This document shows positions 309-26,150 of a stretch of 32,000 nucleotides of DNA, piece after piece; the stretch's first letter is position 1; each line of letters opens with the position of its first letter. A model generated the notes under the pieces. It saw only the letters and a program-made list of their open reading frames with translations. It made no database searches and was not told the origin of the DNA. A program made the translations under genes and the position numbers. Source of the stretch: Candidatus Saccharimonadota bacterium (GTDB taxonomy: Bacteria; Patescibacteriota; Gracilibacteria; UBA1369; 2-02-FULL-48-14). The stretch lies in NCBI GenBank assembly GCA_965230905.1, contig OZ246396.1:180001-212000 (forward strand). The letters are read 5' to 3'.

Positions 309-337
309 TTGCCAAATGGCTTATTTCCTTATAGAAT
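309..337 (+). promoter_or_regulatory. Candidate sigma70-type promoter for rplJ-rplL
   Basis: TTGCCA at 309-314, 17-nt spacer, TAGAAT at 332-337, just 5' of the structured leader before rplJ. Motif match by eye only. Confidence 0.5.
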
Positions 338-340
338 CCC

Positions 341-500: not shown

Positions 501-513
501 ATGTTTTGTCACT

Positions 514-1038: not shown

Positions 1039-1059
1039 ATTAATTAACTCACTATAATT

Positions 1060-1461: not shown

Positions 1462-1503
1462 TTACGCGCGAAGCGTGAGCGAAGTGCGCTTACAAAAAGA
1501 GAA

Positions 1504-1532
1504 AAAGGCCCTCGGAAACGAGGGTCTTTTTT
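1504..1532 (+). terminator. Rho-independent terminator after rplL
   Basis: AAAGGCCCTCG (1504-1514), GAAA loop (1515-1518), CGAGGGTCTTT (1519-1529), running into a T-tract that ends at 1532. GC-rich stem with one G-U pair. Confidence 0.8.
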
Positions 1533-1622
1533 ATTGACAAGGTGGTGTTTTTAAATAGAATTGGGGATGAAAGAGCTTTGCGGCCGTGGTTTATATACCA
1601 CACCTGGCGGGGGGCTTTTTCT

Positions 1623-2036
1623 TCATTGTTCAGGAAAGAATGAAATTAAATATTTTTTCCCGGAGATTTTATCTTCTTTTATTTGAACATAGAAAAGTTC
1701 TTTATGAGGGGTAATACCGGCAAAACGATGTAACCATTCTGATCTTTTATTTGGATTTTCCACCGATCTAGGTAAGCATCTACTTTTCTCTATAAGCTCA
1801 ATAGCTGTTTCAAAAAATTGAAGTCTCCTTGTGCGATCTTTCCAATCTTTTTTCTCATAAAGATGATGCAAGAAAATAGTTAAGAAAACTTTCTCTTTAT
1901 TGAAATAAGCTGATCTAACATAAGGTGTTCTTTTGCTTTTTCTTTGGATTTTTTTAAAAAGCTGTAAGGCGGTATGTCTTACTTCGGAGAAATTAGTACC
2001 AGGAATTTTTCTTGATTTAGTTTTATAAACACGCAT
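1623..2036 (-). CDS. Hypothetical small basic protein (137 aa) in an AT-rich islet
   Basis: Intact ORF rich in Lys/Arg. Local GC is clearly lower than the flanks (two sampled 60-nt lines gave 27% and 35%, against about 53% in the pil genes). I recognise no family. The C-terminal segment ELFYVQIKEDKISGKKYLISFFP looks like a beta-hairpin. Confidence 0.6.
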   Translation of the reverse strand: MRVYKTKSRKIPGTNFSEVRHTALQLFKKIQRKSKRTPYVRSAYFNKEKVFLTIFLHHLYEKKDWKDRTRRLQFFETAIELIEKSRCLPRSVENPNKRSEWLHRFAGITPHKELFYVQIKEDKISGKKYLISFFPEQ

Positions 2037-2078
2037 AAAAGAACATTAGCAGGAAATTTCTGACAAATTCCTGAATTC

Positions 2079-2107
2079 TTTGCACAAATAAAATAAGTTT
2101 TGCACAA
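2079..2107. repeat. Direct repeat TTTGCACAA x2, 20 bp apart, in a divergent intergenic region
   Basis: TTTGCACAA at 2079-2087 and 2099-2107, between the minus-strand 137-aa gene and the plus-strand pil operon. The repeat is visible in the sequence; any function is unknown. Confidence 0.5.
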
Positions 2108-2133
2108 GGTATTAAGACGCCGACTCCCCCTCC

Positions 2134-2162
2134 TTGTAAAAACGGCCTTTTTCTGGTATACT
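2134..2162 (+). promoter_or_regulatory. Candidate promoter of the pilus-assembly operon
   Basis: TTGTAA (2134-2139), 17-nt spacer, TATACT (2157-2162), with a TGn extended -10 (TGG at 2154-2156). It lies about 27 nt upstream of the ATG at 2189. Confidence 0.4.
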
Positions 2163-2188
2163 TACTAGATAAAAATAAACATAAAAGT

Positions 2189-3385
2189 ATGGCTGAAGGG
2201 ATGATTCCCGCATCGGGTAGCGAAAAGGGGCCTGCAATGCCAATGGCACAAGCGGCTGCTTTGAACGATGAATCCAAGAACGTTTTCACCGAGTTGTTTG
2301 GAAAAGACGCTTCGCAGAAGAGTGCCGGCATCATGAACACCGTGGCCGCCCAACAGGATAAAAAAACATCTTTTTTCGGGTCAAAGCCAAAGGAGGATGA
2401 GCTGATAAGCCTCAAGAAGCTGCGCGAGCACCCCAGCAGACCTGGAGCCGCCTTGTTTAAAGCTTCGATTTTCATCTTGGTGCTGACCGTGGGTGGATTC
2501 TTGACTCAGAATTCGAGTTATTTCTCATTTTTTGGAGTGAACCCCGCCTTGAAAGTGGACCAAGCCGCCGACCGCGTGGCGGATTTAACGGCTGATGTAC
2601 AGGTTCAGGGCCATTTGGAAGCGGCTTTGCTGCTGGACCAATACATGTCTAGCGCCGACCAGTATTTTTACAATCTCGCGCAGGCTGAATCAGAGTACAG
2701 TTCCGAGAATAAAAAGGCCGGCTACGAAGAAGAACTCACCGAGCTCAAGCCAGAACTCACGACTTTGCTGGGAAAAGTGCAGCAAAATTTCAGCACGGAG
2801 GTGACTCCCGAGGAAATCGTAACCGCGCAAGCGGTGGTGGATGCCTTGATTGCGGAATTGCACGCCCAATCTGGACAAGTGGATGAACACAGCTTGCTCC
2901 AAGACATTCAAGACCTGGAAACTGCAAAAATCTTGCTCAGCCAGCTTGAATTCAAAGCGCTGGTGAATTCCATTGATCTAGCCGAAGTGACCGATGAAAA
3001 TTTTGAAAGTGTTTATGACCGATTCAGCGAAGTGAACTCCAGTGTGACGGCCTTGATCAGCAAGATTAAGAGCGCCCGCCTGACTTGGTCAGTTTACTTG
3101 GATGAAATCGAAAAACTCACCAAGAGTGTGGATCCTTTGTTCAACACCGAATTCCCCGGCAGCCTGAGTTTGAGTGAAGTTCGCTTCACCACCGATGGCA
3201 CCTTGATGGTAACGGGAAGCACCCTCACCGACGACAGCAAAAACTTCACTTTGGTTTCTGATTTGATCGATGCCTACGAAGATTCTGACTACTTCAGCAA
3301 CGTGGAAGACCGTTCCTATAGCAAAAGTGACGAAGCCGAAACCTATACCGGAAGCTTCCGAATCAGTTTAACCCTGGAACCATGA
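2189..3385 (+). CDS. Bitopic membrane protein with PilN-like topology and C-terminal domain (pilus alignment component candidate)
   Basis: 398 aa. About 95 aa are cytoplasmic at the N-terminus, followed by one TM segment (ALFKASIFILVLTVGGFL) and a long helical, coiled-coil-like region. The C-terminal part (SLSEVRFTTDGTLMVTGSTLTDDSKNFTLVSDLIDAYEDSDYFSNVE...GSFRISLTL) resembles the PilN core pattern. ATGA overlap with the next gene. The exact start is uncertain because several in-frame Met lie near the N-terminus. Confidence 0.6.
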   Translation: MAEGMIPASGSEKGPAMPMAQAAALNDESKNVFTELFGKDASQKSAGIMNTVAAQQDKKTSFFGSKPKEDELISLKKLREHPSRPGAALFKASIFILVLTVGGFLTQNSSYFSFFGVNPALKVDQAADRVADLTADVQVQGHLEAALLLDQYMSSADQYFYNLAQAESEYSSENKKAGYEEELTELKPELTTLLGKVQQNFSTEVTPEEIVTAQAVVDALIAELHAQSGQVDEHSLLQDIQDLETAKILLSQLEFKALVNSIDLAEVTDENFESVYDRFSEVNSSVTALISKIKSARLTWSVYLDEIEKLTKSVDPLFNTEFPGSLSLSEVRFTTDGTLMVTGSTLTDDSKNFTLVSDLIDAYEDSDYFSNVEDRSYSKSDEAETYTGSFRISLTLEP

Positions 3386-3954
3386 GTGATAGAAATAAAT
3401 TTATAGCCGGCCTCTTGATCCTTTTAGTGACCATCGGCTATGGCGTGTTCCAATGGTATGAACGCGAAGCCTTGGCGGTACAAGCCACCGTTTTGAGCAC
3501 CGAAGCGGCCAACCTCACTGCCGTGAGCGACAATTTGAGGGAAGATTACGACGCCATTAAAGTGGAAGTGTCTGCTGCCCGTGAAACGGCTGAGCAAGAA
3601 CTTTCGGTGGTATTCCCTACTAAAGAAGATCTCACCACGCTTACGCGTTTCTTTGATGACTTCTCGGTTAAAAACAACTTTGCCAGCAATCCTTTCTTTA
3701 TTAGCAGCTTGTCTTATGATGCGGCCGTAGCGCCCGAGGGCACCAGCTACCGAGTGGTCCCCCTTCGCCTCAGCATTGAAACTTCAAAAAAGAACCTGAG
3801 CAAATTTTTGGAAACCATTGAAACGTCCGGCTCACTGGAAGGCGAGGTTCGCCTGATGAGCGTGGAAGATATTAAGATCCAATACCCGGATGAATTCGGC
3901 GGATCTTACGAAGTTCAAGTCGAAATTTTTGCCTACTTCTCTCAAGAAATTTAA
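3382..3954 (+). CDS. pilO: PilO-like pilus assembly protein
   Basis: 190 aa with a short N-terminus, a TM segment (FIAGLLILLVTIGYGVF) and a coiled coil. The core that follows (FPTKEDLTTLTRFFDDF...YRVVPLRLSIETSKKNLSKFLETIETSGSLEGEVRLMSVEDIKI) is typical of PilO. Coupled by ATGA at 3382-3385 and TAATG at 3952-3956. Confidence 0.65.
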   Translation: MSDRNKFIAGLLILLVTIGYGVFQWYEREALAVQATVLSTEAANLTAVSDNLREDYDAIKVEVSAARETAEQELSVVFPTKEDLTTLTRFFDDFSVKNNFASNPFFISSLSYDAAVAPEGTSYRVVPLRLSIETSKKNLSKFLETIETSGSLEGEVRLMSVEDIKIQYPDEFGGSYEVQVEIFAYFSQEI

Positions 3955-5204
3955 TGGACGCAAAACTACAAGCTCTGCAGGATGCGATTGTAGGGGGAAA
4001 TATCCCTCAGCTTGTTATGAATGCGGTTTCGTACGCGCTTGATCTGCGTTCTTCGGATATTCATATTGAACCGCTGAAGAACACCGTTCAAATCCGTTAC
4101 CGTGTGGACGGGTCGCTTCGCCGTGTGGTGGAGTACCCACCCAACATCCACCCCGCCGTGGTTTCGCGTATTAAAATAATGTCGAACTTGAAGATTGATG
4201 AGCAGCGCATTCCGCAGGACGGACGCGCGCAAGTGACCACCGGTGAAGGCCGCGAGCTTGACCTGCGTGTTTCGAGTTTGCCTACGATTAATGGAGAAAA
4301 GATCGTGATGCGTATTCAGGATCAATCCAAGGAAATTCCTACTTTTGAAAAATTGGGTATCGCCGGGAATGCTTTGAAATATTTACAGCACGCCTTGGAA
4401 TTACCCAACGGAATTATTTTGACTTCCGGACCTACGGGATCCGGTAAAACCACGACCTTGTACGCCGCGATGACCATTTTGAATGAACCCGATGTGAACA
4501 TTTTGACCATTGAAGATCCGGTGGAAATCCAAATGGACGGACTCAATCAGTCGCAAGTGCATCCCGATATTGATTACACCTTTGCTTTTGGACTTCGAAC
4601 CGCTCTCCGTCAGGATCCCGACATCATCATGGTGGGGGAAATCCGTGATAAGGAAACGGTAGATGTGGCCATTGAAGCATCGCTGACTGGACACTTGGTG
4701 CTGTCCACTATCCATACGAATTCTGCGGTGGAAACGCTGACTCGTATTATTAATATGGGTGTGCCTTCCTTCCTTATGACGGCGACCATCAATGCGATTA
4801 TTGCGCAGCGTCTGGTGCGAAGACTGTGTGACAAATGCCGCAAGCCGCTGGTGGTGGATGAGTACACGCTGACCATGGTGAAATCCGCCATGAGCAAGCT
4901 GCATCCCGATGAACCGCACGACCCTGCTAAAATTGCCGCGCTCCAATTTTTTGGACCGGGTGAAGTGGACTGTGAACAATGCAGCGGCGTTGGGTACTAC
5001 GGACGAGTGGGACTCTTTGAAGTTTTGAAAATGAACAGTGAAATCCGCGACATGGTTTTGAAGCAAGCCTCCACACAAGACATTCAAGAAGCCGGAATGC
5101 GCACCGGAATGGTGACGCTGGAACAAGCCGGAATTTTGAAGGCACTGGATGGAATCACCTCGCTGGAAGAAGTTTATTCCGTAGCTCGACCTGAATCTGC
5201 ATGA
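3954..5204 (+). CDS. pilB: Type IV pilus / T2SS-family assembly ATPase (PilB/GspE/ComGA family), short form
   Basis: 416 aa. Walker A GPTGSGKTT at 4428-4454, Walker B/Asp box DPDIIMVGEIRD, His box GHLVLSTIHTN. Tetracysteine motif CDKC...CEQC followed by GYYGR. It lacks the long N-terminal domains of full-length PilB. Confidence 0.92.
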   Translation: MDAKLQALQDAIVGGNIPQLVMNAVSYALDLRSSDIHIEPLKNTVQIRYRVDGSLRRVVEYPPNIHPAVVSRIKIMSNLKIDEQRIPQDGRAQVTTGEGRELDLRVSSLPTINGEKIVMRIQDQSKEIPTFEKLGIAGNALKYLQHALELPNGIILTSGPTGSGKTTTLYAAMTILNEPDVNILTIEDPVEIQMDGLNQSQVHPDIDYTFAFGLRTALRQDPDIIMVGEIRDKETVDVAIEASLTGHLVLSTIHTNSAVETLTRIINMGVPSFLMTATINAIIAQRLVRRLCDKCRKPLVVDEYTLTMVKSAMSKLHPDEPHDPAKIAALQFFGPGEVDCEQCSGVGYYGRVGLFEVLKMNSEIRDMVLKQASTQDIQEAGMRTGMVTLEQAGILKALDGITSLEEVYSVARPESA

Positions 5205-6403
5205 CCGTACCCAACTTAACAGCAACGCATCTCGACATCGGACTCTCCCGTGAGGATCAGTCCCGCATCGACGAGCTCCGCAGCAGCGCCAAACCCACAA
5301 CGCAGAAAAAAACAGCTACGTTTACCAGCATCAATGAATGGGTGACCCTCACCTTCACCAAGATCACACTGCGTGAAAAAGTGATGTTTTTTCAATTGCT
5401 TTCTGTGATGATCAACGCCGGCGTGCCCATTATTCGCTCTTTATATGTACTGTCGGAACAAGTGAGTAATTTGAAACTCAAGAAAGTGATTCATTCGCTT
5501 GCGCTTGAGATGGAAGAAGGAAAAACTTTGTCTAGTTCCATGGAAAAATTTGGCTCCACGTTCAGTGAAGCGGAGCGCGGTATGATCGCCAGTGGAGAAG
5601 CCTCTGGAAATTTGAATCAAATTTTAAAAGACATCGCCAAGCAGGCGGAAAAAAGCGCCATGATCATTGCAAAAGTAAAAGGCGCCATGATTTATCCGGT
5701 TTCCATTTTGCTCGTGATGGCCGTGTGTTTGTTTTTGATCCTCACCATGGTGGTGCCCAAGCTCACGGACCTCTTCACACAAGGAGGAACGGAGCTGCCA
5801 CTGAGCACACAAATTTTGATGAAGATGTCGACCATTGCCCAGGAATATTGGATCTTGGTGATTATTGCTATGCTGGCCGCAGGACTGGGCTTCACCTTGT
5901 TTAAAAAAAGTAAGCGCGGACGTTACAGCCTGGACCTAGTTTTGCTCTACACGCCTGTGTTTGGAAAGCTGGTACGTGAGCTTATGGTTTCACGCTTTGC
6001 CCGCATGATGGCCAGCTTGATCAACGCCGGAGTGCCCATTGTGAAAGCCTTGGAAATCAACGCGAACGCCGTGGGGAATGAAGTGTACAAACGCCGCATT
6101 CAATACGCGGCTCAGGACGTATCGCAAGGTATGCCTTTGGGAGAAAATTTGACGGACAGCAGCTTCCTCTTCCCCCCTACCGTGGCGTCCATGGTTTTGG
6201 TGGGAGAACAAACCGCTAACCTAAATGAAGTGGCCAGCAAAATTGCCGACTTTTACGAGGGTGAAGTGGACAACGCGGTGGCGTCTTTGTCTAAACTAAT
6301 GGAACCGATGATTCTGGTGATCATGGGAAGCATGGTGGGATTCATTGTGGCCGCTATTATGCAGCCGATTATGTCTTTGAGTGATATTTCTACGAGTGTT
6401 TAA
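5201..6403 (+). CDS. pilC: Type IV pilus platform protein (PilC/GspF/ComGB family)
   Basis: 400 aa with two GspF-type repeats (FFQLLSVMINAGVPIIRSL and FARMMASLINAGVPIVKAL), three hydrophobic TM segments, and an ATGA overlap with the ATPase gene. Confidence 0.92.
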   Translation: MTVPNLTATHLDIGLSREDQSRIDELRSSAKPTTQKKTATFTSINEWVTLTFTKITLREKVMFFQLLSVMINAGVPIIRSLYVLSEQVSNLKLKKVIHSLALEMEEGKTLSSSMEKFGSTFSEAERGMIASGEASGNLNQILKDIAKQAEKSAMIIAKVKGAMIYPVSILLVMAVCLFLILTMVVPKLTDLFTQGGTELPLSTQILMKMSTIAQEYWILVIIAMLAAGLGFTLFKKSKRGRYSLDLVLLYTPVFGKLVRELMVSRFARMMASLINAGVPIVKALEINANAVGNEVYKRRIQYAAQDVSQGMPLGENLTDSSFLFPPTVASMVLVGEQTANLNEVASKIADFYEGEVDNAVASLSKLMEPMILVIMGSMVGFIVAAIMQPIMSLSDISTSV

Positions 6404-6414
6404 ATAGCTTTAAT

Positions 6415-6442
6415 TTGCCTTTTGAAAGGCGTGGTGTAGAAT
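6415..6442 (+). promoter_or_regulatory. Candidate promoter of the pilin gene
   Basis: TTGCCT (6415-6420), 16-nt spacer, TAGAAT (6437-6442). This is the same -10 hexamer as the rplJ candidate promoter. ATG at 6472. Confidence 0.45.
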
Positions 6443-6471
6443 TTGCGTATTCAATTTAACCATACCACGCC

Positions 6472-7020
6472 ATGGTAACCCTTTCTCCGCGCAAACGCGC
6501 TTTCACCCTTATAGAACTTTTGATCGTGATTACGATCATTGGTATTTTGGCCGTTGCCCTTGTACCCCGACTCACCGGAGGACCTGGACGTGCCCGTGAC
6601 GCTCAACGTAAAGCCGATCTTCAACAGATTGCAACCGCGCTTGAGTTCTATGCGAACGACAACTCCGGAGACTACCCCCTTGCAACCACCGGCAACTGTG
6701 CCTCTGGCTTGGCTTTAACCAGCTATTTAACCGTAATGCCTGTGGATCCTGGCAACGATGGTTGGTCTACGACTTATTGTTCAGGTGGATATGCATATAT
6801 CCCGCTCAATACCAATGGCGGTACAGATATTGAAGGCTACTTACTCGTAGCGGATCTTGAGACGGAAACGGAGAAAGGAACGGGTATTTATAACACCAAC
6901 TTTACCGTTACCTCTACATCCACTGCCGCTGCCAACTTCTCAAGTACCAGCCCAGGTAATGCTGCTAAGCTCTGCAGCGCAATGACTTGTACTGACGCCA
7001 TTGTGGTGATTGGACGATAA
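6472..7020 (+). CDS. Type IV prepilin / pseudopilin (GspG/ComGC-like N-terminus)
   Basis: 182 aa with a class III signal MVTLSPRKRA|FTLIELLIVITIIGILAVALVP and Glu at +5. A GspG-like helix follows (RDAQRKADLQQIATALEFY). Four Cys lie in the C-terminal globular part. A strong terminator follows the gene. Confidence 0.9.
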   Translation: MVTLSPRKRAFTLIELLIVITIIGILAVALVPRLTGGPGRARDAQRKADLQQIATALEFYANDNSGDYPLATTGNCASGLALTSYLTVMPVDPGNDGWSTTYCSGGYAYIPLNTNGGTDIEGYLLVADLETETEKGTGIYNTNFTVTSTSTAAANFSSTSPGNAAKLCSAMTCTDAIVVIGR

Positions 7021-7035
7021 TTCTATCGACTTAGG

Positions 7036-7067
7036 AAAGGCCCTCGGAAACGAGGGCCTTTTTGTTT
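7036..7067 (+). terminator. Rho-independent terminator after the pilin gene
   Basis: AAAGGCCCTCG (7036-7046), GAAA loop, CGAGGGCCTTT (7051-7061), then TTGTTT. Nearly identical in sequence to the rplL terminator at 1504-1532. Confidence 0.8.
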
Positions 7068-7123
7068 ACCGCAACACAAAAAAATAAACGGCAAGTTGAA
7101 AGTGGATTTGCAGATTAAATGGG

Positions 7124-7145
7124 GGCGCGAAATTCGCGTCTTTTT
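7124..7145 (+). terminator. Possible second small hairpin plus T-tract between the pilin and giant genes
   Basis: GGCGCG (7124-7129) pairs with CGCGTC (7135-7140), including one G-U pair, around a 5-nt loop, followed by TTTTT (7141-7145). The stem is short and the call is weak. Confidence 0.3.
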
Positions 7146-7153
7146 GCTAGAAT
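7145..7153 (+). promoter_or_regulatory. Extended -10 element (TGcTAGAAT) 7 nt upstream of the giant-gene ATG
   Basis: TGCTAGAAT at 7145-7153 with no good -35. The A of the ATG at 7160 sits where a transcription start would be expected, which suggests a leaderless or near-leaderless mRNA. Confidence 0.3.
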
Positions 7154-7159
7154 TCCTGC

Positions 7160-10100
7160 ATGCGTCCACACCACTCTACGCATCGAATAAAACGACTTGT
7201 AATTAAGGGCTTTCTGCTCACGTTTTTGTCGTCACTGCTGCCCATGGGGCAAGTGGCTTCGGCGCTAAGCATCATTGACCAGGCTAGGCCTTCGGTCATT
7301 CAACCGGGCGGAAGTTTGCCGGAAATACGCAGTGTGGGCAGTGTGGAAACCCGTTACGGGCTGGTGGCGATTTTGGTGGACGACGAACTTCTGGGATCCA
7401 GCACCAGTGGAGGCGGATTCTTTTCGTTTTTGGGAACCGCTGGCTTGAAGGAAAAAATTCAGACCTATGCCCAGGATGTGCAGGCCACCCTGCCCTGGAC
7501 CAAAACGGTGATTGTGGAAGTGGCCGATACGGATACGCCGGTGGAGATTCAGCGCATGCTCGAGCGTTTTTACTTTGAAGGCAACCCAGAAGACTCCGAC
7601 CCGACCAAACTGAGTGGAGTGGTGATTGTGGGCGACGTGCCCCTGCCCGTGGTGAATAAATTGGGCAACCGCTTTATTTCTCTGCTGCCTTATACTGATT
7701 TTGAAGAGCCGGCGTATTTGCTCGATTCCGAAACGCAGGATTTTCTTCCCAACGCGGCGGCGCAAAATTTACAAAACGAAATTTGGCATGGAGTCATTGT
7801 GCCGCCACTCGATGGACAAGAGGGAATCGACTTGCTCGCGACTTATTTCGATAAAAATCATGCCTTCCATACCGGCGACGAGGATGCCACAAGCTTTAAT
7901 CAAAAAGTTTTCATTGGGGATTTGATAACCGAAGCTTCTGCGCTCAACCCCACGGCCTTTGCCAGCTATGAACGCTTCACCAATCTGTGGGAGGAGATTG
8001 CGTACTACCGCTACACCAACGATTTGGTGGAAGACTTGTACACGCAGATGCAGACCTCGGTGGAAGAAGGAGACTTTTTGGACAACGATAGCGATGGATT
8101 TTATGACGAGGAAGCGTCCAATGGAATCGATGACGACAACGACGGCTTAGTGGATGAAGATTTGGGAGATGGATTTTTTGGAATCGACAACGACGGCGAC
8201 GGCGTGGTGGATGAAGACAGTTTTGAAGACAACAACAACGATGAAGGTTGGATTTACTCCGGCTATGAAGGCAGCGAAGCCGAGTCGATATTTTCGGATC
8301 ACATGCTCGATGAAGATCCTCCCGGAGACACCACCGGAGGCGAAGACCAGGATGGAGATGGGTATTTGGATGGAGACGGTTGTCCCGGGCTCTGTGGACA
8401 GGACGACAACGGCGATGGCGTAGATTCCGACTTGGACGGATATCCCACCGGAATTGAAGTGCTGTACCATTGGGATTGGGCTGACGAACGGATACCTTGG
8501 GGCAACGTGAAGGATTGGACCAATGCGGAATTTGCTCAAAGTTTTTCTAGCGACGAAGCGGCAACGGCGTATTTGTCTGAAATGTTTGTGGATCAATTTT
8601 TCGGAGACGCCTATAAGAGCCCCACGTGTTATTTTGACGGAGTGTACCACCCTGAGTACGACGACGATGAAGATGGTTTTTGTGATGAAGACGGAAAAGA
8701 AGAGATGCAAATTTGGGCCAATGAAAATGGAACCCGCGCCAGCGGGACCTGCGCCTACAACGACGGGGATTGTGATGGGGTGATTGATGAAGATCCCATT
8801 GGACTTAAGAGCGAGGGAATGTTTGATAATTTGCCGGACATTCAAGCTAAACGTGTGGTGGAGAGCCTGACCAGTCGCTACGCCAGTATGTTTGATGAGC
8901 CACAGGGGGTGTGGAACCGAATCGTGGGGCAAACGGGCCGCTATGAAACCCGCAGCAGTGATGGAGAAACCGTGAGCAATGACTACGACAGCACCGTTTC
9001 TTTGATCGCCAAAAAAGATGAATTGGTTTTGCAGTACCTCACCGAATTGAATGCCAGCATGGAAGCAAAAGTGGACGCCATTGTGGAAGACCACCTGGCG
9101 CAGGACATTCCTTTGATTGCGGGGGTACAAATTACCGGAAAAATCACCACGGAAAATGAGGATGGCGACGAAGAAGGCACCGACGAGATTTGTGATGACG
9201 AGGGTGAGGTGGATTTGGGAAGCGACAAGTGTCTGCAGTTTGTAAATCAGTCGGGTTTTGACCCGCTTGCCTTTGGTATTCTTGATGAGGAAAGCAGTTT
9301 TCTAGATATTTTTAAATTGGGCGCAGAGCACTTTTATATTGCCGGCGAACATTTGTGGGACGTCACTTCACCTGCTCAATGCACCACCTTTGCCGGAACG
9401 GATGAAGTGGGCGGACAGTTGGCGCAATTCAATAGTTTGTATAGCAGAGAATTTAGCGTGGCGCACAACAATATGAGCATCGAGGAATTGCAAGACTACC
9501 GCAATTGTGTGCCGGAATTTGCCTCCTACTTAAAAGACATTCCACAAGTGTGCAACGTGGCCACCACGGTGAAATCCGTCCGCACTTTGGATGGCGCGAA
9601 GGCGCCGGATGAAGACACCGATACGAGTAAATGGGACGTGGGGGCTGAAGCGTGTTTTGAATTCAGAGAATTGGAGACCTTCAACGATTACACCCAGTCC
9701 CAAGCGGAATTCAACAACTGGCTTTCGTTGAGGATTCGGGTCTTTAGAGAGAGCGGGGCTACCGACACCGGGGAAACTTATCAGGAATTTTTAGGCCTGG
9801 TGGAGGAACAAATGGACACCTACACGCCCCGCCCCGACGAGGCCACGCTCCGAAAACAATTCCGCGAACTCGACTTGCTCCGTGCCGATGACGAACGCAG
9901 CTACACCATGATCGATTTGCTCGAAGAATTGGGCTACAAAAATGTGAGCGACGACGATGTGGATACCTTCATCGCCATGCTGGACGATGAATCGGACTTT
10001 GTGACGGTAGATCTGGATGTGGACGATCTGCGGGATCTTGTGGACGAACTGGATGAAATTGTGCAGCTGCAAGACAACGACCGACTTATTATTAATCATC

Positions 10101-21607: not shown

Positions 21608-21616
21608 TTCCACGCT

Positions 21617-22204
21617 ATGCTTAAAAAATTTGAAAATAAATTCTTTCTGGTTTGCGCCGCACTGGTGCTGGTCTTCAATGGCCTGCTCTATGCTTTTGCA
21701 GCAGAAACTGAGCTGGTGACGGATGTGCCCAAGCCGGTGGATGGAACGGATTTTCAATGTGGTTACGACGTGATGCAAGAAGCCCAAGTACTGGTGGATT
21801 CGTATCAAGTTTTTTTGGACGATTACTTTAAACAAGTCACGCCTTCGAGTGAACAAGTGGACGGCGCCATGAAGTACTACCGCCTGATGGAATTCTCCAT
21901 TCAAAAAATCTACCAAAGCAACTTAAGGCAAGACACCAACTTCAATTTAAACAGCAGCATTCAAGCCAACTCTTATTGTGCTTACGTGCGTGACCTTTAT
22001 TTGGACATCGCCAGCGCCATGCTGCAAAAACAAGTCATTGCTTCTTCCAGCAGCAAACGCACCTTCCTTATGGTGGACGGACTCAAAGCGACCAACGAGC
22101 ACATGGAAATTTTTGCAGATGAGTTCAGTGCCGTTTTCCCTGGCTTCTTTACTAAATTCAACAACGCTTTACCTTGTTACGCGCACCAATGTATAAACAA
22201 ATGA
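21617..22204 (+). CDS. Secreted hypothetical protein 1 of the post-giant cassette (195 aa)
   Basis: Starts 9 nt after the giant-gene stop. Signal peptide MLKKFENKFFLVCAALVLVFNGLLYAFA|AE. Four Cys in the mature part. Ends ...FPGFFTKFNNALPCYAHQCINK. Confidence 0.8.
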   Translation: MLKKFENKFFLVCAALVLVFNGLLYAFAAETELVTDVPKPVDGTDFQCGYDVMQEAQVLVDSYQVFLDDYFKQVTPSSEQVDGAMKYYRLMEFSIQKIYQSNLRQDTNFNLNSSIQANSYCAYVRDLYLDIASAMLQKQVIASSSSKRTFLMVDGLKATNEHMEIFADEFSAVFPGFFTKFNNALPCYAHQCINK

Positions 22205-22830
22205 CTTGGGTCAAATGGTTCGCGCTCGCCTTTGTGGCGGGATTCCTGCTCCCCCGCACGTACGGGCCGAGCCTAAGTGCGAGCCTACTCGGCCCCACTA
22301 GCAGCACCTTTGACGGCATGGACATGACCGATGCCATCACCGAATACCATTTGCGTGCCAACCAAACCGTGGATCAGTTCCTGGATGTTTTGCTGGACCC
22401 GGACCTTTCTGAGTTGGTGGTGAGCTACCCTCCCGACGACAGTGAGTGCACCGGGAATGTTTCCACGTATTGTTTGGCCGTTTCGCTCAACAACAACCTC
22501 GAAGACTTTGCAATTTACCTCCAAAAAAATCAAACGAGTTTTAGCGACAGTCTTTTTGAAGACGATGCAGCGCTGAGTCTGCAGGACGCTCTGGACACGG
22601 CGGCACATCAACGCAGCACCGTGGACGAACAAGTGGCCTTGGCTGAAGACAGCATCGATCTGACCCTGGCCGTGTACAACCAAGTGCAATTGGTTTACCC
22701 CGTGCACAAAGAGATGCTCGCTTTGATCCAAAACCTGGACGATTACCGGGGCAATCTTTCAAAAATTCGCGACGTACTTGAGGAATATCCTTCTAAATTC
22801 AACGGCGCCAGTACCGCCCAATGTAAATGA
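22201..22830 (+). CDS. Secreted/membrane-anchored hypothetical protein 2 of the cassette (209 aa from ATG 22201)
   Basis: The ORF track starts this gene at 22174, but the ATG at 22201 forms an ATGA overlap with the upstream stop and gives a clean hydrophobic N-terminus (MTWVKWFALAFVAGFLLP). Three Cys. Ends ...YPSKFNGASTAQCK. Confidence 0.75.
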   Translation: MTWVKWFALAFVAGFLLPRTYGPSLSASLLGPTSSTFDGMDMTDAITEYHLRANQTVDQFLDVLLDPDLSELVVSYPPDDSECTGNVSTYCLAVSLNNNLEDFAIYLQKNQTSFSDSLFEDDAALSLQDALDTAAHQRSTVDEQVALAEDSIDLTLAVYNQVQLVYPVHKEMLALIQNLDDYRGNLSKIRDVLEEYPSKFNGASTAQCK

Positions 22831-24650
22831 AAAAATTCCTTCTTTTCAGCATCGGGATGGTCCTGAGTCTTACCGCCGGTATGACGGTGAGCCAAGCGCT
22901 CATGAGCGACGACGATTTGCTCGCTCATATTTTTGAAGAAGCCGGGGTGGACATGAGCGACAGTCACGACGCCAAGGAACTATCCAATTTAGCGTCGGGC
23001 GAAGTTCCCTTTGAAGGGCTTTATTTATTCATGCTTCAAAACATTAAGAACGGCCCTCAAGATGCCGCGATTGAAGAAATCGCCAAACGCTACCAATACA
23101 CCGAGGAAGAAATTGAAGCCATTGTGCTCACCGGAGACAGCCAAGGAATCATCAATAAAAAACAGGAAGAAGTCTTGGCGGCACAAGCGGCGGGCGCCGC
23201 CGAACAGATGGAAGCTGCCCAAGCCCAGGCAGACGCCGACCTCGAAACGTTTATTGCCGACAACAGCTTTGGAGCAAACACCGAAACCTTCGTCCGCGAG
23301 TACTACGCTACGTATGAGCGACCTCCCCTGGCCACGGATTTGGATGATCCGTTGACCTCGGATTTCCTTTTGGACCGCATGGCGGAAATTGGCGGTGCCT
23401 ACGACAAGGAACTCGAATTCCAACAATCCAACCGCCGCTTGGCCTACGAGGCTTTGGCGAGTGAAATGTTCATGAACAATAAGCTCGGGGACTCCGCCAA
23501 CATCGACTTGCTCTACGACTTGGATTTGATTCATTATTTGCTGTTTGGCGAGCTGATCACCTACCCGGACCGCAGCGACGAGGATGTGAATTTGGCGTCG
23601 GAAGTGCTGGAGGAAGAAGCGCCCATTGTCATGTTTAAGCAGCCGGAACCCCGTGAAGAAGTTATTTTGGCCGAAGAAGAAATCGATCCTTATGTTTGTT
23701 ACGGTGATGAAGCTTTGGCCGGAGCTCTGAGTAGCTATGAAAGCAATCCGCCCGACACCGGCGACGCCTTACCGGAAAGCGTGAGTCGCATCGATTACAG
23801 CCTGGGAAGCTCGGGTGGTTCAGGCGAGTCTGGTGGTTCAGGTGGGTCCGCTGAAGAAGATAATCCTTTCCTCACCGATATTGGTGCGGCTTTCCAAGCC
23901 TTGGACGATGTACTGAGTAACTTGGAAGCGCCCAAAGGAAACTGGAATCGCAACTACACTTGTAACCAAACTTTCTGTGTTGAAGTCTTGGTGATTGCGG
24001 AAAATGAGGATGCCGAAGTGGAACACGAAAGCATGGAAGCAGCTGACTTTGAAGAGAATGAAAACTGCATCGCCTGCCACACGGCCTTCATTGAAAAACG
24101 GCTCGAAGAAACCATGAGCAAAAGTTTGGTGCCCAGTAAAATCACCATGAATTGGTTTGAAGATGCCACGTGTAAAGAAGCGGGTAGCTTTGTGAATTTG
24201 GATCTGAATGTCTACGCCATCAAGCGTCCCATCGATCTGGACCCTGGGGATGATTTGGATGAGAAAGCCAATGAAGACATTGAAGTTTTCAAAACCACGC
24301 TCGGTCCTTTGATTGGCATCAACGATAATTTTGGAAAGACCAAGAGCGAGGCTGAATGCGAAAGCATCCTCAACCTTGGAAAAGCCGCCGACGCCGAACG
24401 CGGCATCGATAAATTATTGGAACAATGCCAAGACGCAGCGACTGAAAACGTCGCTCAAATTCAAGAAGCCTTCGATGAATTCAACTTCAAGACCTACTCC
24501 CAAACAAGCAGTGATCTCTACGGTCAAGTTTCTACTGAACTCTACACCATGCTGCTCTACTTCCGAACTTTCCAGGAAGGCGTTAAAGACACCTATGTAA
24601 ACGGCCAAGCTCCTCTGGCTTCCCTACTCACTAAAGGTTATTGCAAATGA
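22827..24650 (+). CDS. Secreted hypothetical protein 3 of the cassette (607 aa)
   Basis: ATGA overlap at 22827-22830. Signal peptide MKKFLLFSIGMVLSLTAGMTVSQA|LM. A central Gly/Ser linker (GSSGGSGESGGSGGS) sits near 23805-23860. All nine Cys lie in the C-terminal half. Ends ...LLTKGYCK. Confidence 0.8.
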   Translation: MKKFLLFSIGMVLSLTAGMTVSQALMSDDDLLAHIFEEAGVDMSDSHDAKELSNLASGEVPFEGLYLFMLQNIKNGPQDAAIEEIAKRYQYTEEEIEAIVLTGDSQGIINKKQEEVLAAQAAGAAEQMEAAQAQADADLETFIADNSFGANTETFVREYYATYERPPLATDLDDPLTSDFLLDRMAEIGGAYDKELEFQQSNRRLAYEALASEMFMNNKLGDSANIDLLYDLDLIHYLLFGELITYPDRSDEDVNLASEVLEEEAPIVMFKQPEPREEVILAEEEIDPYVCYGDEALAGALSSYESNPPDTGDALPESVSRIDYSLGSSGGSGESGGSGGSAEEDNPFLTDIGAAFQALDDVLSNLEAPKGNWNRNYTCNQTFCVEVLVIAENEDAEVEHESMEAADFEENENCIACHTAFIEKRLEETMSKSLVPSKITMNWFEDATCKEAGSFVNLDLNVYAIKRPIDLDPGDDLDEKANEDIEVFKTTLGPLIGINDNFGKTKSEAECESILNLGKAADAERGIDKLLEQCQDAATENVAQIQEAFDEFNFKTYSQTSSDLYGQVSTELYTMLLYFRTFQEGVKDTYVNGQAPLASLLTKGYCK

Positions 24651-25702
24651 AACTCTCCCACACCTTTTTCACCGGATTTCTTTTCCTAACGGGCGTCGCC
24701 TTGCCGGGTCTTGTCACCGACGCTTCGGTAGTGGATGGGCTCAACTGCGGCAGCCAATATTACGATTTTATTTTGAGTGTGCGCAGTGAAAACACTCGAG
24801 AACAGTTCATTCAAGACTTCCGACGAGGCTACTGCCAGTTGAACGACCTTATGGAACTGGACGACGAGCTCGACACCCTGCGTGAAAATTTCCGTACGGC
24901 GGCCTTTGATTGCGCCGACACGAGTCCGTATCAGGAAGAATACCACCGCATTTTGATGGAGCAGTATTTTATCCGCAACGTTCAACAAAGCCCTTCGGAT
25001 GTGATTCGTGAAAAGGAAGCCCTTGAGCTCGAAGCCGCTAAGGAGGCGATTTTAACGGGCCTTAAAGCAGATATGATCGCCGTGTTTGTGGTGGAAGAAG
25101 GCCGGGTTTCTGAGCCGGTGCTCAATGACTATTTTGACAGCTGGACGCTCAAATACGAAGACCGCATCGGCAATTATTACCGATGTGAAGAAGGTGGATT
25201 CGCTGAAATCAAAGAGAGTTGGGATGACTTTGTGGAGACCATTGAAACCCTGAGCGTGGACATTGAACCGCACGAAAAAATTTCTTTCAAAGACAATATT
25301 AAATTCGACAACGATTTGGATGAAGAAACGGAACAACTCCAAGACATCGGGCAGAACACAATCGACGGCTGGAGCTATTATAAAAATTTAATGGGCATTG
25401 GTAAGAATACAGTGGAAGCGCCCGCTAAGGTGAGTGACTTTGACGGTACGGGCGAAGTGTTTACCTTTGGCAGTGCTTTGGATATTTTACAAAGCGACAC
25501 CACCCGCGCCACTATTCAGGCCGAAAGCGCCGAGCGCATGGCCAAGTACAAACTCTTGTATGGTGAAGGCGGCGCGGTGGCGGCCACCGACATGCAGGGC
25601 GTTTTGCAATACATGAACCAAATCATCGCCGAAACCAACGCCAAAGACTTCCCCGGGGTTTTGACCGGCGTGACGAAGGTGTATGAACGCCAATGTAACT
25701 GA
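24647..25702 (+). CDS. Secreted hypothetical protein 4 of the cassette (351 aa from ATG 24647)
   Basis: The ORF track uses TTG at 24641. The ATG at 24647 gives an ATGA overlap with the upstream stop (24648-24650). Hydrophobic N-terminus MKLSHTFFTGFLFLTGVALPGLVTDA|S. Five Cys. Ends ...FPGVLTGVTKVYERQCN. Confidence 0.8.
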   Translation: MKLSHTFFTGFLFLTGVALPGLVTDASVVDGLNCGSQYYDFILSVRSENTREQFIQDFRRGYCQLNDLMELDDELDTLRENFRTAAFDCADTSPYQEEYHRILMEQYFIRNVQQSPSDVIREKEALELEAAKEAILTGLKADMIAVFVVEEGRVSEPVLNDYFDSWTLKYEDRIGNYYRCEEGGFAEIKESWDDFVETIETLSVDIEPHEKISFKDNIKFDNDLDEETEQLQDIGQNTIDGWSYYKNLMGIGKNTVEAPAKVSDFDGTGEVFTFGSALDILQSDTTRATIQAESAERMAKYKLLYGEGGAVAATDMQGVLQYMNQIIAETNAKDFPGVLTGVTKVYERQCN

Positions 25703-25979
25703 AGAAAAGAGTGCTTTCGTCTTAGCTGAAGAAGCCGGAGGAAAAAGGCCAAAGGGACTATTGGGTTTCTTAACGAGACAATAAGGAGAAAAAGGTGTGT
25801 TTTTTGCGGGCCATGACGGGTTTTTTCTTGTGTTCAAGTTCCACGCTTTCACGAGCGTTGTTGAGGTCTACCATGCAGTACGGACAAAGGTCCTTTCGAA
25901 GGGAAATCAATCTACCGCAGGAGAAGCAATTAAATAACATGAGGCGTGGGTGGGAGGGGAATCAAGAGGACGGAAACCT

Positions 25980-26150
25980 TTAGTTAACCTGTTTTTGTAG
26001 GAATTCATTCAGGTCGTCTTCGCTGATGCGATAGACTCGTCCGAATTTCACGCTTTTGAGGCGTTTACTCCTAATAAACTTTAGTACGGTTAAGTGGTGG
26101 AGCTGCAGGGCGTCCGCGACTTCTTCGGGCGTGAGGAGCCGCTTAATCAT
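25980..26150 (-). CDS. Excisionase-family helix-turn-helix DNA-binding protein (56 aa; absent from the ORF track)
   Basis: Manual translation of the minus strand gives MIKRLLTPEEVADALQLHHLTVLKFIRSKRLKSVKFGRVYRISEDDLNEFLQKQVN. This is the classic HTH_17/excisionase pattern (LLT..EvA..L.v...Tv...i..g.l....iGr.yrI...dl.efl). ATG complement at 26148-26150, stop complement at 25980-25982. Confidence 0.8.
   Translation of the reverse strand: MIKRLLTPEEVADALQLHHLTVLKFIRSKRLKSVKFGRVYRISEDDLNEFLQKQVN

What the first reader, a model, noticed from the sequence alone, without database searches (positions are those of the whole stretch)
2134..25702. Locus-level hypothesis: a pilus machine, a wall-anchored giant fibre and an accessory cassette as one surface-attachment system
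Ten consecutive same-strand genes run in this order: PilN-like, PilO-like, ATPase, platform, pilin, giant SLH-anchored protein, then four secreted proteins. The only long intergenic gap, 139 nt, lies between pilin and giant gene, and it holds a terminator plus a possible internal promoter. Established knowledge: in T4aP systems the large calcium-binding beta-propeller adhesin PilY1 is encoded with minor pilins and acts at the pilus tip. Type IV pili also mediate host attachment in episymbiotic small-genome bacteria. Here a much larger protein with FG-GAP and DxDxDG modules sits next to the pilin. Its partner proteins lack prepilin leaders, and it carries its own SLH wall anchor. This therefore looks like a different, undescribed arrangement. 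It could pair a retractable or assembling filament with a wall-anchored multi-domain fibre for cell-cell or substrate attachment. This is inference from gene order and domain content only.
Basis: inference. Interest (0 to 1): 0.75.

Follow-up and report, generated by a model that had tools for sequence, protein, structure and literature searches.

The report
Pilus operon beside giant wall-anchored protein
In a small-genome groundwater bacterium (Peribacteria/Peregrinibacteria), a type IV pilus gene set, a 4815-residue wall-anchored calcium-binding surface protein and four unknown secreted proteins sit together, and the same layout recurs in nearly every relative examined, so they probably form one lineage-specific surface apparatus, though that function is untested.

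Summary
Ten same-strand genes run PilN-like, PilO-like, PilB-type ATPase, PilC, prepilin, a 4815-aa secreted giant and four exported proteins with no known family. The giant carries Ig-like, FG-GAP and DUF11 domains, 15 DxDxDG loops and C-terminal SLH repeats.

- A same-strand prepilin gene lies upstream of the giant in 69 of 70 relatives (median gap 192 nt).
- PilB and PilC lie upstream in 43 of 47 relatives.
- Giant followed by the four-gene cassette occurs in 17 of 17 relatives.
- The pilin-giant pair stays together where PilB/PilC are absent or inverted.

The locus is not one operon. A strong terminator follows the pilin gene and is conserved in 48 of 62 relatives. The giant has its own conserved extended -10 promoter, here 6 nt before its ATG, so its mRNA is probably leaderless. 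The giant and cassette are translationally coupled.

The giant is not a PilY1 homologue. Its N-terminal domain, its central Cys/Pro-rich module and all four cassette proteins match nothing in Pfam or PDB. Two conserved small convergent genes (Zn-ribbon, HTH_17) close the block and were missed.

Verdict: a real, conserved and apparently undescribed locus. The "single attachment system" reading is plausible but inferred.

The parts
2134..2162 (+). Promoter-like site (TTGTAA-17-TATACT with TG) upstream of the pilus-assembly genes
   Evidence: Consensus scan. A consensus match only; the count does not exceed shuffles.
2189..3385 (+). g1, 398 aa. Bitopic PilN-like protein with a transmembrane segment at aa 85-107, a long coiled-coil and a PilN-like C-terminal domain.
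   Evidence: Pfam PilN E=0.01 for the window protein; 15 of 26 orthologues hit PilN, best 3e-5; hydropathy.
3382..3954 (+). g2, 190 aa. Bitopic PilO-like protein with a transmembrane segment at aa 5-26. ATGA overlap with g1.
   Evidence: No Pfam hit for the window protein; 7 of 29 orthologues hit Pfam PilO, best 1.9e-5. The PDB profile search found only coiled-coil noise.
3954..5204 (+). PilB/GspE-type assembly ATPase, 416 aa, with four Cys (292, 295, 340, 343). It lacks about 180 N-terminal residues of canonical PilB.
   Evidence: Pfam T2SSE 5.7e-126. NCBIfam PilB 3e-146 and GspE 3e-143, both matching only from model position about 105-180 onward and below their cut-offs. Cys positions.
5201..6403 (+). 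PilC/GspF platform protein, 400 aa
   Evidence: Pfam T2SSF 8e-53, two stretches; NCBIfam GspF and PilC.
6415..6442 (+). Promoter-like site (TTGCCT-16-TAGAAT) 30 nt upstream of the pilin gene
   Evidence: Consensus scan.
6472..7020 (+). Type IV prepilin, 182 aa. Leader MVTLSPRKRA|FTLIELL, Glu+5, four Cys.
   Evidence: Pfam N_methyl 7e-9; NCBIfam IV_pilin_GFxxxE. A same-strand prepilin-motif gene lies upstream of the giant in 69 of 70 relatives.
7036..7067 (+). Intrinsic terminator after the pilin gene (11-bp stem, GAAA loop, T-run)
   Evidence: Fold of the gap. A terminator-like hairpin is present in the same gap in 48 of 62 relatives, with different sequences.
7090..7120 (+). Two conserved intergenic blocks, GGCAAGTTGAAA and CAGATTAAAT. 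Function unknown; possibly a regulator site.
   Evidence: Alignment of 15 intergenic regions.
7145..7153 (+). Extended -10 element TGCTAGAAT ending 6 nt before the giant's ATG. This is the giant's own promoter; a leaderless mRNA is inferred.
   Evidence: TAnAAT lies at exactly 6 nt in the window and 11 relatives (12 of 78 sequences, window included). TGnTAnAAT lies 27-53 nt upstream in distant relatives.
7160..21607 (+). Giant secreted protein, 4815 aa, 19% Asp+Glu, 34 Cys
   Evidence: ORF; called as one gene in the source contig; family of 3.5-6 k aa proteins.
7337..8059 (+). Giant aa ~60-300: the best-conserved domain (GVVIVGDVPLPVVNK..PYTDF..WHGVI..FDKNH). The model shows a mixed alpha/beta core followed by helices. 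No known family.
   Evidence: Alignments A1 and A2. No Pfam hit. AF2 pLDDT 62; Foldseek best E=0.02. No PDB profile hit.
8057..8839 (+). Giant aa ~300-560: Asp-rich region with 7 DxDxDG loops and Cys pairs (Ca2+-binding type)
   Evidence: Motif count against shuffles.
12017..12934 (+). Giant aa ~1620-1925: three Big_1/Invasin_D3-type Ig-like domains
   Evidence: Pfam on segments, E=1e-9 to 1e-11, three stretches.
14237..14659 (+). Giant aa ~2360-2500: FG-GAP/VCBS repeats (beta-propeller blades)
   Evidence: Pfam FG-GAP_3 4.7e-14, two stretches.
14957..15256 (+). Giant aa 2600-2699: DUF11 Ig-like domain
   Evidence: Pfam DUF11 2e-5, just above its cut-off.
15797..17719 (+). Giant aa 2880-3520: conserved central Cys/Pro-rich module with a coiled-coil. 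Hallmark of the giant family; no known family.
   Evidence: Alignment A9 with invariant Cys and Pro. No Pfam or PDB match. Found in 390 clusters at 50% identity, mostly 3.5-6 k aa proteins. Not consistently transmembrane-like.
20657..21259 (+). Giant aa ~4500-4700: S-layer homology (SLH) repeats, the cell-wall anchor, followed by a TSP3_bac repeat
   Evidence: Pfam SLH 1.9e-10, two stretches, and TSP3_bac. This is the best-conserved C-terminal segment, median 63% identity.
21617..22204 (+). g7, 195 aa. Exported protein with 4 invariant Cys; ends ..PCYAxQCxxK.
   Evidence: Alignment A6. No family in Pfam, NCBIfam or PHROGs. Starts 9 nt after the giant's stop.
22201..22830 (+). g8, about 209 aa (ORF opens at TTG 22174; ATG 22201 overlaps the g7 stop as ATGA). 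N-terminal hydrophobic segment, 3 invariant Cys; ends ..STAQCK.
   Evidence: Alignment A8. No known family.
22827..24650 (+). g9, 607 aa. Exported, mostly helical protein with invariant Cys including the penultimate residue. Motifs NWFEDATCKEAG and DSANIDLLYDLD.
   Evidence: 59 full-length homologues; alignment A3. AF2 pLDDT 60; no Foldseek or PDB match.
24647..25702 (+). g10, about 351 aa (ORF opens at TTG 24641). Exported protein; ends ..KQCN.
   Evidence: Alignment A7. No Pfam or PDB match.
25770..25940 (-). Conserved 56-aa zinc-ribbon protein, convergent on g10
   Evidence: Weak zinc-ribbon Pfam hits. Present directly after g10 in 12 loci at 64-91% identity.
25980..26150 (-). Conserved 56-aa HTH_17 DNA-binding protein; candidate regulator
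   Evidence: Pfam HTH_17 2.7e-13. Present after the cassette in 11 loci by tblastn at 67-89% identity, and called in L003, L004 and L106.

Best explanation
This is a lineage-specific, vertically conserved surface locus of Peribacteria/Peregrinibacteria. It consists of two or three separately transcribed but evolutionarily locked modules.

Module 1 is a minimal type IV pilus assembly set: PilN-like, PilO-like, a short PilB-type ATPase and PilC. It is followed by the major prepilin, whose mRNA ends at a strong terminator.

Module 2 starts at its own extended -10 promoter, here placed to give a leaderless mRNA. It encodes a 4815-aa Sec-exported, highly acidic, Ca2+-loop-rich protein, translationally coupled to four exported Cys-bearing helical proteins.

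The giant is held on the cell wall by its C-terminal SLH repeats; most relatives also have a second, internal SLH block. It displays Ig-like, FG-GAP propeller and DUF11 domains plus a fast-evolving region (aa ~400-1600) towards the outside. The four small proteins are most likely stoichiometric partners or assembly factors of the giant, possibly disulfide-linked through their invariant C-terminal cysteines.

I infer that pilus and giant act in the same surface process, namely contact with other cells or particles, because selection keeps the pilin gene next to the giant gene even when the rest of the pilus genes move away.

Shown: gene content, domain content, transcription signals, translational coupling and conservation of order. 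Inferred: wall anchoring, outward display, complex formation, adhesion, and any pilus-giant cooperation.
For: - Pilus components.
- Source and lineage: a 1.3-Mb contig from Hainich groundwater; relatives are all Peribacteria, Peregrinibacteria or NCBI-named 'Gracilibacteria' MAGs.
- Pilin-giant adjacency: 69 of 70, median gap 192 nt. PilB plus PilC upstream: 43 of 47. rplL upstream: only 33 of 47.
- The pilin-giant pair is kept while PilB/PilC are absent (L036, L049, L054) or inverted (L042).
- Giant followed by g7-g8-g9-g10, colinear, in every locus that reaches that far.
- Coupling: a 9-nt gap and ATGA overlaps.
- Conserved terminator, 48 of 62, and conserved -10 element.
- Giant domains and Ca loops.
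- SLH is the best-conserved C-terminal part; aa 800-1200 is the least conserved (median 40%, against 82% for PilB).
- Invariant C-terminal Cys in all four cassette families.
- Literature: type IV pili drive host attachment in cultivated CPR bacteria (PMC9894109, PMC11623550). Peribacteria genomes are noted for large exported Cys-rich proteins, including FG-GAP proteins, and for sequence variation localised in them (PMC4736985). CPR bacteria are enriched in extracytoplasmic disulfide-forming enzymes (PMC6744442).
Against: - There is no expression, localisation or interaction data.
- Pilin and giant are separated by a conserved terminator and have separate promoters, so co-regulation is not implied.
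- The wider neighbourhood (recJ, miaA, rplJ-rplL upstream; uvrA downstream) is also syntenic in many relatives, so some of the adjacency is inherited order in small, slowly rearranging genomes.
- The pilus set here lacks PilM, PilD, PilT and minor pilins, so it cannot work alone.
- No adhesive ligand can be named.
- The cassette proteins and two large conserved parts of the giant have no detectable relatives of known function.
- I could not test whether pilus clusters of this type occur without a giant.
Confidence: 0.45

Rival explanations
1. Two unrelated systems lie side by side. An ordinary CPR type IV pilus (DNA uptake, motility) happens to sit next to a giant envelope protein operon, and adjacency reflects only inherited gene order in a streamlined genome.
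For: There is a conserved terminator plus a separate promoter between pilin and giant. rplJ-rplL, recJ, miaA and uvrA are also conserved neighbours. No interaction evidence exists.
Against: Pilin-giant adjacency (69 of 70) is clearly tighter than rplL-pilus (33 of 47) or PilBC-giant (43 of 47). It survives local rearrangements and insertions of toxin-antitoxin modules. Sequence identity has fallen to 25-35% over the same set, so there was ample time for reshuffling.
Confidence: 0.3
2. The giant is the S-layer or envelope scaffold protein of these cells, and the cassette holds its assembly factors. The pilin gene is kept adjacent because pili must pass through, or be docked in, that layer.
For: SLH repeats are present, twice in most relatives. 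The protein has the extreme acidity and Ca2+ loops typical of S-layer proteins. S-layers and pili are both reported for ultra-small groundwater bacteria and Peribacteria (PMC4736985, citing Luef 2015).
Against: At 4815 aa with many different adhesin-type domains and a hypervariable third, it is unlike known lattice-forming S-layer subunits. No lattice-forming domain was recognised. Abundance is unknown.
Confidence: 0.2
3. The pilus-like machine is a type II-secretion-like pseudopilus that pushes the Sec-exported giant and the cassette proteins through the wall. In this reading the adjacent genes are its cargo.
For: The ATPase scores equally as GspE and PilB, and the pilin's best NCBIfam match is the GspG N-terminus. 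There is no PilT in the window. T2SS substrates are often encoded beside their machines (established knowledge). The giant and cassette all carry Sec-type N-termini.
Against: The GspG match covers only the generic N-terminal helix (residues 9-74). No GspD, K, I, J, L or M homologues are present. The pilin is terminated separately as an abundant product. Pilins evolve fast, like exposed filament subunits (median 53% identity). No T2SS is known in wall-bounded monoderm-like cells.
Confidence: 0.08
4. The giant is a PilY1/PilC-type pilus-tip adhesin, much enlarged.
For: It is a Ca2+-binding, propeller-containing, Sec-exported protein encoded next to a pilin, as PilY1 is (established knowledge).
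Against: No Neisseria_PilC/PilY1 (PF05567) hit appeared at E<=1 in any segment. There is no minor-pilin set. SLH repeats tie it to the wall rather than to a filament tip. The propeller repeats are FG-GAP type.
Confidence: 0.04

Closest known systems
Type IVa pilus systems with PilY1/PilC and minor pilins (Pseudomonas, Neisseria, Myxococcus)
   Same: PilB-type ATPase, PilC platform, PilN/PilO-like alignment proteins and a class III signal prepilin. A large Sec-exported Ca2+-binding protein with beta-propeller repeats is encoded beside a pilin gene.
   Different: No PilY1 domain, no minor pilins, and no PilM, PilQ or PilT in the locus. The large protein is about four times bigger, carries SLH wall anchors, and comes with four unknown secreted partners. 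It has a separate promoter.
Type IV pili of monoderm and CPR bacteria (e.g. Saccharibacteria TM7x/TM7i pili used for episymbiosis; PMC9894109, PMC11623550, PMC6744442)
   Same: Secretin-less T4P gene set in a small-genome Patescibacteria lineage, with presumed roles in cell-cell contact.
   Different: The searched literature does not report a conserved giant SLH protein and cassette locked to the pilin gene. That linkage is the new element here.
Giant surface proteins of Absconditabacteria (Vampirococcus, Absconditicoccus, S. methylophilicida; PMC8080830, PMC13059738)
   Same: Sister-lineage CPR bacteria with multi-thousand-residue exported proteins carrying integrin/FG-GAP, DUF11 and Ig-like domains, many SLH proteins and T4P. 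They are proposed to mediate host attachment.
   Different: Those papers list the proteins by domain content only. No conserved operon structure, cassette or pilin linkage is described. Homology to this giant family was not tested.
SLH-anchored multidomain surface proteins of Firmicutes (S-layer proteins; cellulosome anchoring scaffoldins such as OlpB/SdbA)
   Same: Sec export and a triplet of SLH repeats at one end that binds wall polymer, with a long modular extracellular part.
   Different: There the modules are cohesins or lattice domains. Here they are Ig-like, FG-GAP, DUF11 and Ca-loop modules plus two novel conserved modules. Most relatives have a second, internal SLH block.
Giant Ca2+-dependent RTX adhesins (LapA, MpIBP, SiiE)
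   Same: Very large, acidic, Ca2+-stiffened proteins with Ig-like repeats and a variable ligand-binding region.
   Different: Those are T1SS substrates with C-terminal RTX signals and highly repetitive extender domains. This giant has a Sec signal and no internal repeats detectable by BLAST, and it is SLH-anchored.

Membership tests
Type IV filament (T4P) assembly system | PilB/GspE-family hexameric assembly ATPase | tested here: met
   Pfam T2SSE 5.7e-126; NCBIfam PilB 3e-146, below the equivalog cut-off because the N-terminal ~180 residues are missing.
Type IV filament (T4P) assembly system | PilC/GspF polytopic platform protein | tested here: met
   Pfam T2SSF 8e-53, two repeats.
Type IV filament (T4P) assembly system | Prepilin with class III signal (short leader, G/A|F, Glu+5, hydrophobic helix) | tested here: met
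   N_methyl 7e-9; leader KRA|FTLIELLIV. The -1 residue is Ala in the window clade and Gly in 49 of 69 relatives.
Type IV filament (T4P) assembly system | PilN/PilO bitopic alignment proteins | tested here: inconclusive
   The window proteins are below Pfam cut-offs (PilN E=0.01; PilO none). At family level, 15 of 26 members hit PilN and 7 of 29 hit PilO. Topology fits. PDB profile searches were negative.
Type IV filament (T4P) assembly system | Prepilin peptidase (PilD), PilM, and a retraction ATPase (PilT) for a retractile pilus | tested here: not met
   None is among the ORFs of the 32-kb window. The rest of the 1.3-Mb genome could not be read. Peribacteria genomes are reported to hold twitching-motility genes elsewhere (PMC4736985).
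PilY1/PilC pilus-associated adhesin | C-terminal PilY1/Neisseria_PilC beta-propeller domain (PF05567) | tested here: not met
   No hit at E<=1 in the whole protein or in ten overlapping segments.
PilY1/PilC pilus-associated adhesin | Co-encoded with a set of minor pilins that prime assembly | tested here: not met
   The window has a single prepilin gene. A few relatives have 2-3 tandem paralogous pilins, not a minor-pilin set.
SLH-anchored cell-wall / S-layer-associated protein | Sec signal plus tandem SLH domains | tested here: met
   SLH 1.9e-10, two stretches scored and a third visible by eye at aa ~4680-4700. N-terminal signal-like segment.
SLH-anchored cell-wall / S-layer-associated protein | Binding to pyruvylated secondary cell-wall polymer (CsaB present), or lattice formation | not testable with these tools
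Type II secretion system | GspD secretin, GspL/M, and minor pseudopilins GspH-K | tested here: not met
   None in the window. The GspG match is limited to the generic N-terminal helix.
Peptidase C25 (gingipain)-like N-terminal domain (my own lead from memory) | Sequence or fold similarity to C25/caspase-like domains | tested here: not met
   No Pfam hit and no PDB profile hit. Foldseek best E=0.02 to unrelated flavodoxin-like folds; caspase-11 ranks 28th with probability 0.15. The model is only pLDDT 62.

The most novel reading that the evidence does not exclude
Pilin, giant and cassette build one composite organelle peculiar to Peribacteria. In it the type IV filament is physically coupled to a wall-anchored, roughly 0.5-MDa Ca2+-stiffened protein complex. 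That complex could be a docking collar or conduit that lets the pilus cross the wall and S-layer in a cell without a secretin, or a capture fibre that the pilus reels prey or host cells onto. The four C-terminal-Cys proteins would be disulfide-linked subunits of it. This would be a new class of pilus accessory structure defined by at least six protein families with no known relatives.
Probability: 0.2. Interest if true: 0.8.

Novelty: new variant of a known kind. Interest (0 to 1): 0.55.

Why it matters
Patescibacteria (CPR) make up a large share of bacterial diversity. They are thought to live attached to other cells, yet outside Saccharibacteria the attachment machinery is essentially unknown.

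This locus offers a concrete, conserved candidate for a whole class (Peribacteria/Peregrinibacteria). The same pilin-giant-cassette block is present in at least 163 species-level genomes. The central module of the giant defines about 390 protein clusters, almost all of them 3.5-6 k aa proteins. The locus gives a defined target list for metatranscriptomics, proteomics and cryo-ET:
- pilin;
- giant N-terminal domain;
- giant central module;
- four cassette families;
- an HTH_17/Zn-ribbon pair.

It also provides a clean comparative example of conserved promoter and terminator architecture, including a probable leaderless giant mRNA, in an uncultivated lineage.

If pilus and giant prove to be physically coupled, it would show how secretin-less, wall-bounded cells integrate pili with their envelope.

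Tried and rejected
1. The whole 4815-aa giant as a homology query timed out. The central 820 aa found only one partial hit in the word-indexed database, which seems to lack full-length giants. The exhaustive representative search later found 390 clusters.
2. Peptidase C25/gingipain-like N-terminal domain (a pattern recalled from memory): no support from Pfam, a PDB profile search or Foldseek.
3. Hedgehog/Hint-like autoprocessing site at "NGGCIAFPGS" (aa 2918-2927): no Hint-family hit in Pfam for the window or for 26 homologues. The Gly-Cys is conserved but the rest is not Hint-like. Dropped.
4. A transmembrane hairpin in the giant (hydrophobic peaks at aa 3000-3019 and 3329-3349): across 26 homologues the mean 19-residue hydropathy is 1.3-1.4, with charged residues inside the segments. 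Judged not to be membrane-spanning.
5. The four cassette proteins as paralogues: BLAST and hhalign give nothing significant (probability <=5%). They share only export signals, helical character and a C-terminal Cys.
6. Structure-based annotation of g9 and of the giant N-terminus: models of pLDDT 60-62, no Foldseek hit with E<0.01.
7. PDB profile searches for the g1, g2, g9, g10 and central-module families: only coiled-coil noise.
8. PHROGs gave only a coiled-coil spanin-like match for g2, judged non-specific.
9. tRNA and Rfam scans of the window found nothing.

Full report
**Source and setting.** The window is part of a 1.307-Mb contig from Hainich groundwater (ENA ERZ1292638 NODE_1). The closest relatives found later are all MAGs labelled Candidatus Peribacteria, Peregrinibacteria or (NCBI naming) Gracilibacteria. 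Upstream lie rplJ and rplL; downstream lie an MFS transporter and uvrA. No gene of the locus has a Shine-Dalgarno-like sequence.

**Check of the observation.** Ten + strand ORFs occupy 2189-25702 in the stated order.
- The ATPase is an unambiguous T2SSE family member (5.7e-126). It scores equally as PilB and GspE but lacks about 180 N-terminal residues of both models.
- The platform protein is T2SSF/PilC (8e-53).
- The 182-aa protein is a prepilin (N_methyl 7e-9).
- The "PilN-like" and "PilO-like" labels are weak for the window proteins alone (PilN E=0.01; no PilO hit). They hold at family level: 15 of 26 orthologues hit Pfam PilN and 7 of 29 hit PilO. Both proteins are bitopic with coiled-coils.
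- The giant (4815 aa, 19% acidic) has a signal-like N-terminus, three Big_1/Invasin Ig-like domains, FG-GAP_3 repeats, DUF11, SLH repeats and a TSP3 repeat. It carries 15 DxDxDG-type loops against 0.2 expected.
- The four downstream proteins have no match in Pfam, NCBIfam or PHROGs. They have conserved N-terminal hydrophobic export segments.

The 139-nt pilin-giant gap is the longest in the locus. It contains a textbook terminator at 7036-7067. Small corrections: g8 and g10 most likely start at ATG 22201 and ATG 24647, giving ATGA overlaps. The giant-g7 gap is 9 nt, and g1/g2, g3/g4 and g8/g9 overlap by ATGA.

**Comparative test.**
- The g9 protein has 59 full-length homologues down to 31% identity.
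- The giant's first 300 residues have 15 partial homologues.
- Their contigs show recJ-miaA-rplJ-rplL-g1-g2-PilB-PilC-pilin-giant in four of four cases.
- Their contigs show giant-g7-g8-g9-g10 in four of four cases.
- A scan of one genome per GTDB species with the conserved N-terminal core found relatives in 163 species. I analysed 80 of those loci.
- A metagenome scan with the g9 profile gave 16 more loci.

From tblastn and ORF analysis:
- 69 of 70 loci with at least 1.5 kb upstream have a same-strand prepilin gene before the giant (median gap 192 nt; 57 of 70 within 1 kb).
- 43 of 47 loci with at least 9 kb upstream have PilB and PilC.
- 33 of 47 have rplL.
- Every locus that reaches the giant's end has the four cassette genes in the same order.

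Where order is broken, pilin stays with the giant. L036, L049 and L054 have no PilB/PilC within about 9.5 kb, and L042 has them inverted. The single exception without a pilin (L085) has an Abi/TA-like insertion at the junction and only 3.4 kb of upstream sequence. So the "would refute" outcome from the giant's side did not occur.

**Transcription architecture.**
- A GC-rich hairpin plus T-run lies between pilin and giant in 48 of 62 relatives. The stem sequences differ, so it is the feature that is conserved, not the sequence.
- Downstream of it, the window's clade shares two unexplained blocks, GGCAAGTTGAAA and CAGATTAAAT.
- It also shares an extended -10, TTTTGCTAGAAT, ending exactly 6 nt before the ATG. 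This occurs in the window and 11 relatives.
- Distant relatives have TGnTAnAAT 27-53 nt upstream.

In this clade its position predicts a leaderless giant mRNA; that step is inference. The locus is thus two or three transcription units: the assembly genes, the pilin, and the giant with its cassette.

**Anatomy of the giant family.** Conservation is highest in the N-terminal domain (median 58%), the central module and the SLH end (63%). It is lowest at aa 800-1200 (40%). PilB is 82% and pilin 53% over the same genomes.
- The N-terminal domain (GVVIVGDVPLPVVNK...PYTDF...WHGVI) models as a mixed alpha/beta core followed by helices. It matches nothing.
- The central module (aa 2880-3520) has invariant Cys and many invariant Pro. 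It also matches nothing.
- That module occurs in 390 clusters at 50% identity, nearly all 3.5-6 k aa proteins, at a similar relative position.
- Its hydrophobic peaks are not conserved as transmembrane helices.
- Relatives carry an extra SLH-containing insert of about 320 aa near aa 1500 that the window's giant lacks. Most family members therefore have two wall-binding regions.

**Cassette.** Each of the four families is well conserved and predicted to be exported. Each ends with an invariant Cys one to four residues from the C-terminus..QCxxK..AQCK..YC[KEQ] and ..KQCN. g8, g9 and g10 have odd numbers of conserved Cys. They are not detectable paralogues. The g9 model is all-helical with low confidence and has no structural neighbour. 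Tight translational coupling to the giant argues that they are its partners or assembly factors. Disulfide linking is a hypothesis.

**Extension of the block.** Directly after g10, on the other strand, lie a 56-aa Zn-ribbon gene and a 56-aa HTH_17 gene. Both are present in 11-12 of the metagenome loci at 64-91% identity, which is better conserved than the cassette. They may regulate the locus; this is untested.

**Interpretation.** The evidence supports a conserved, lineage-specific surface locus in which a pilin gene and a giant SLH-anchored protein operon are evolutionarily locked. It does not show that they work as one machine. I rank the explanations as follows:
- functional linkage in a common surface or attachment process: 0.45;
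- mere inherited adjacency: 0.30;
- an S-layer or scaffold role for the giant, which partly overlaps the first: 0.20;
- a T2SS-like export role for the pilus machine: 0.08;
- a PilY1-type tip adhesin: 0.04.

Membership in the PilY1 family is rejected: there is no PF05567 domain and no minor pilins, and an SLH anchor is present.

**Novelty.** The literature searched describes CPR type IV pili (PMC6744442, PMC9894109, PMC11623550). It also describes, generically, giant surface and SLH proteins in Peribacteria and Absconditabacteria (PMC4736985, PMC8080830, PMC13059738). It does not describe this locus, its cassette or the pilin linkage. The library is limited to open-access papers.

I rate it a new variant of a known kind, namely a type IV pilus locus with an associated large adhesin-like protein. 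It contains at least six protein families or modules without known relatives.

Noticed in passing
window 25770-26150 (- strand): Two small convergent genes, a 56-aa Zn-ribbon and a 56-aa HTH_17, lie directly after the cassette. They are conserved in 11-12 related loci at 64-91% identity, higher than the cassette proteins.
   Followed up: partly
window 7145-7162: The extended -10 TGCTAGAAT ends 6 nt before the giant's ATG. The same spacing occurs in 11 relatives. This predicts a leaderless mRNA for a 14.4-kb gene.
   Followed up: partly
window 7090-7120: Conserved intergenic blocks GGCAAGTTGAAA and CAGATTAAAT lie between the terminator and the -10 element. The spacing does not fit a sigma-70 -35/-10 pair. 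Function unexplained.
   Followed up: partly
window 21617-25702 (C-termini at 22190-22204, 22822-22830, 24642-24650, 25694-25702): All four cassette protein families end with an invariant cysteine 1-4 residues from the C-terminus. g8, g9 and g10 have odd numbers of conserved Cys, suggesting intermolecular disulfides.
   Followed up: partly
window ~11300-11960 (giant aa ~1400-1600), compared with L009 10691-12857 and 14 other loci: The window's giant lacks an internal SLH-like insert of about 320 aa that its relatives carry, so most family members have two wall-binding regions and this one has only one.
   Followed up: partly
L004 (CP064962.1) 1-8812: In a complete Peregrinibacteria genome the giant is annotated as two overlapping ORFs (2351 aa and 2665 aa). 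This is a frameshift, a sequencing error or a genuine split.
   Followed up: no
L036 5218-9518; L085 1-3392; L031 7310-9503; L042 6997-8370: The pilin-giant gap is an insertion hot spot in relatives. It holds PIN-type toxin-antitoxin modules, an AbiEii-like gene, a 506-aa gene and a reverse-strand 209-aa gene.
   Followed up: no
window 6472-6510: The prepilin cleavage site has Ala instead of Gly at -1 (KRA|FTLIELL). This holds throughout the window's clade (19 of 69 pilins); the other relatives have Gly.
   Followed up: no
window 2164-25702 (upstream of every gene start): None of the ten genes has a recognisable Shine-Dalgarno sequence. Several are coupled by ATGA overlaps.
   Followed up: no
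window 1623-2036 (- strand): A 137-aa basic ORF of unknown function lies between rplL and the pilus genes. It is called as a gene in the source contig. Relatives L005 and L006 have a PIN-domain gene and a small upstream ORF at the same place.
   Followed up: no
L027, L032, L037 (about 4250-8450 in each): In one subclade three secreted proteins (about 490, 340 and 445 aa) are inserted between PilC and the pilin. They were not characterised.
   Followed up: no
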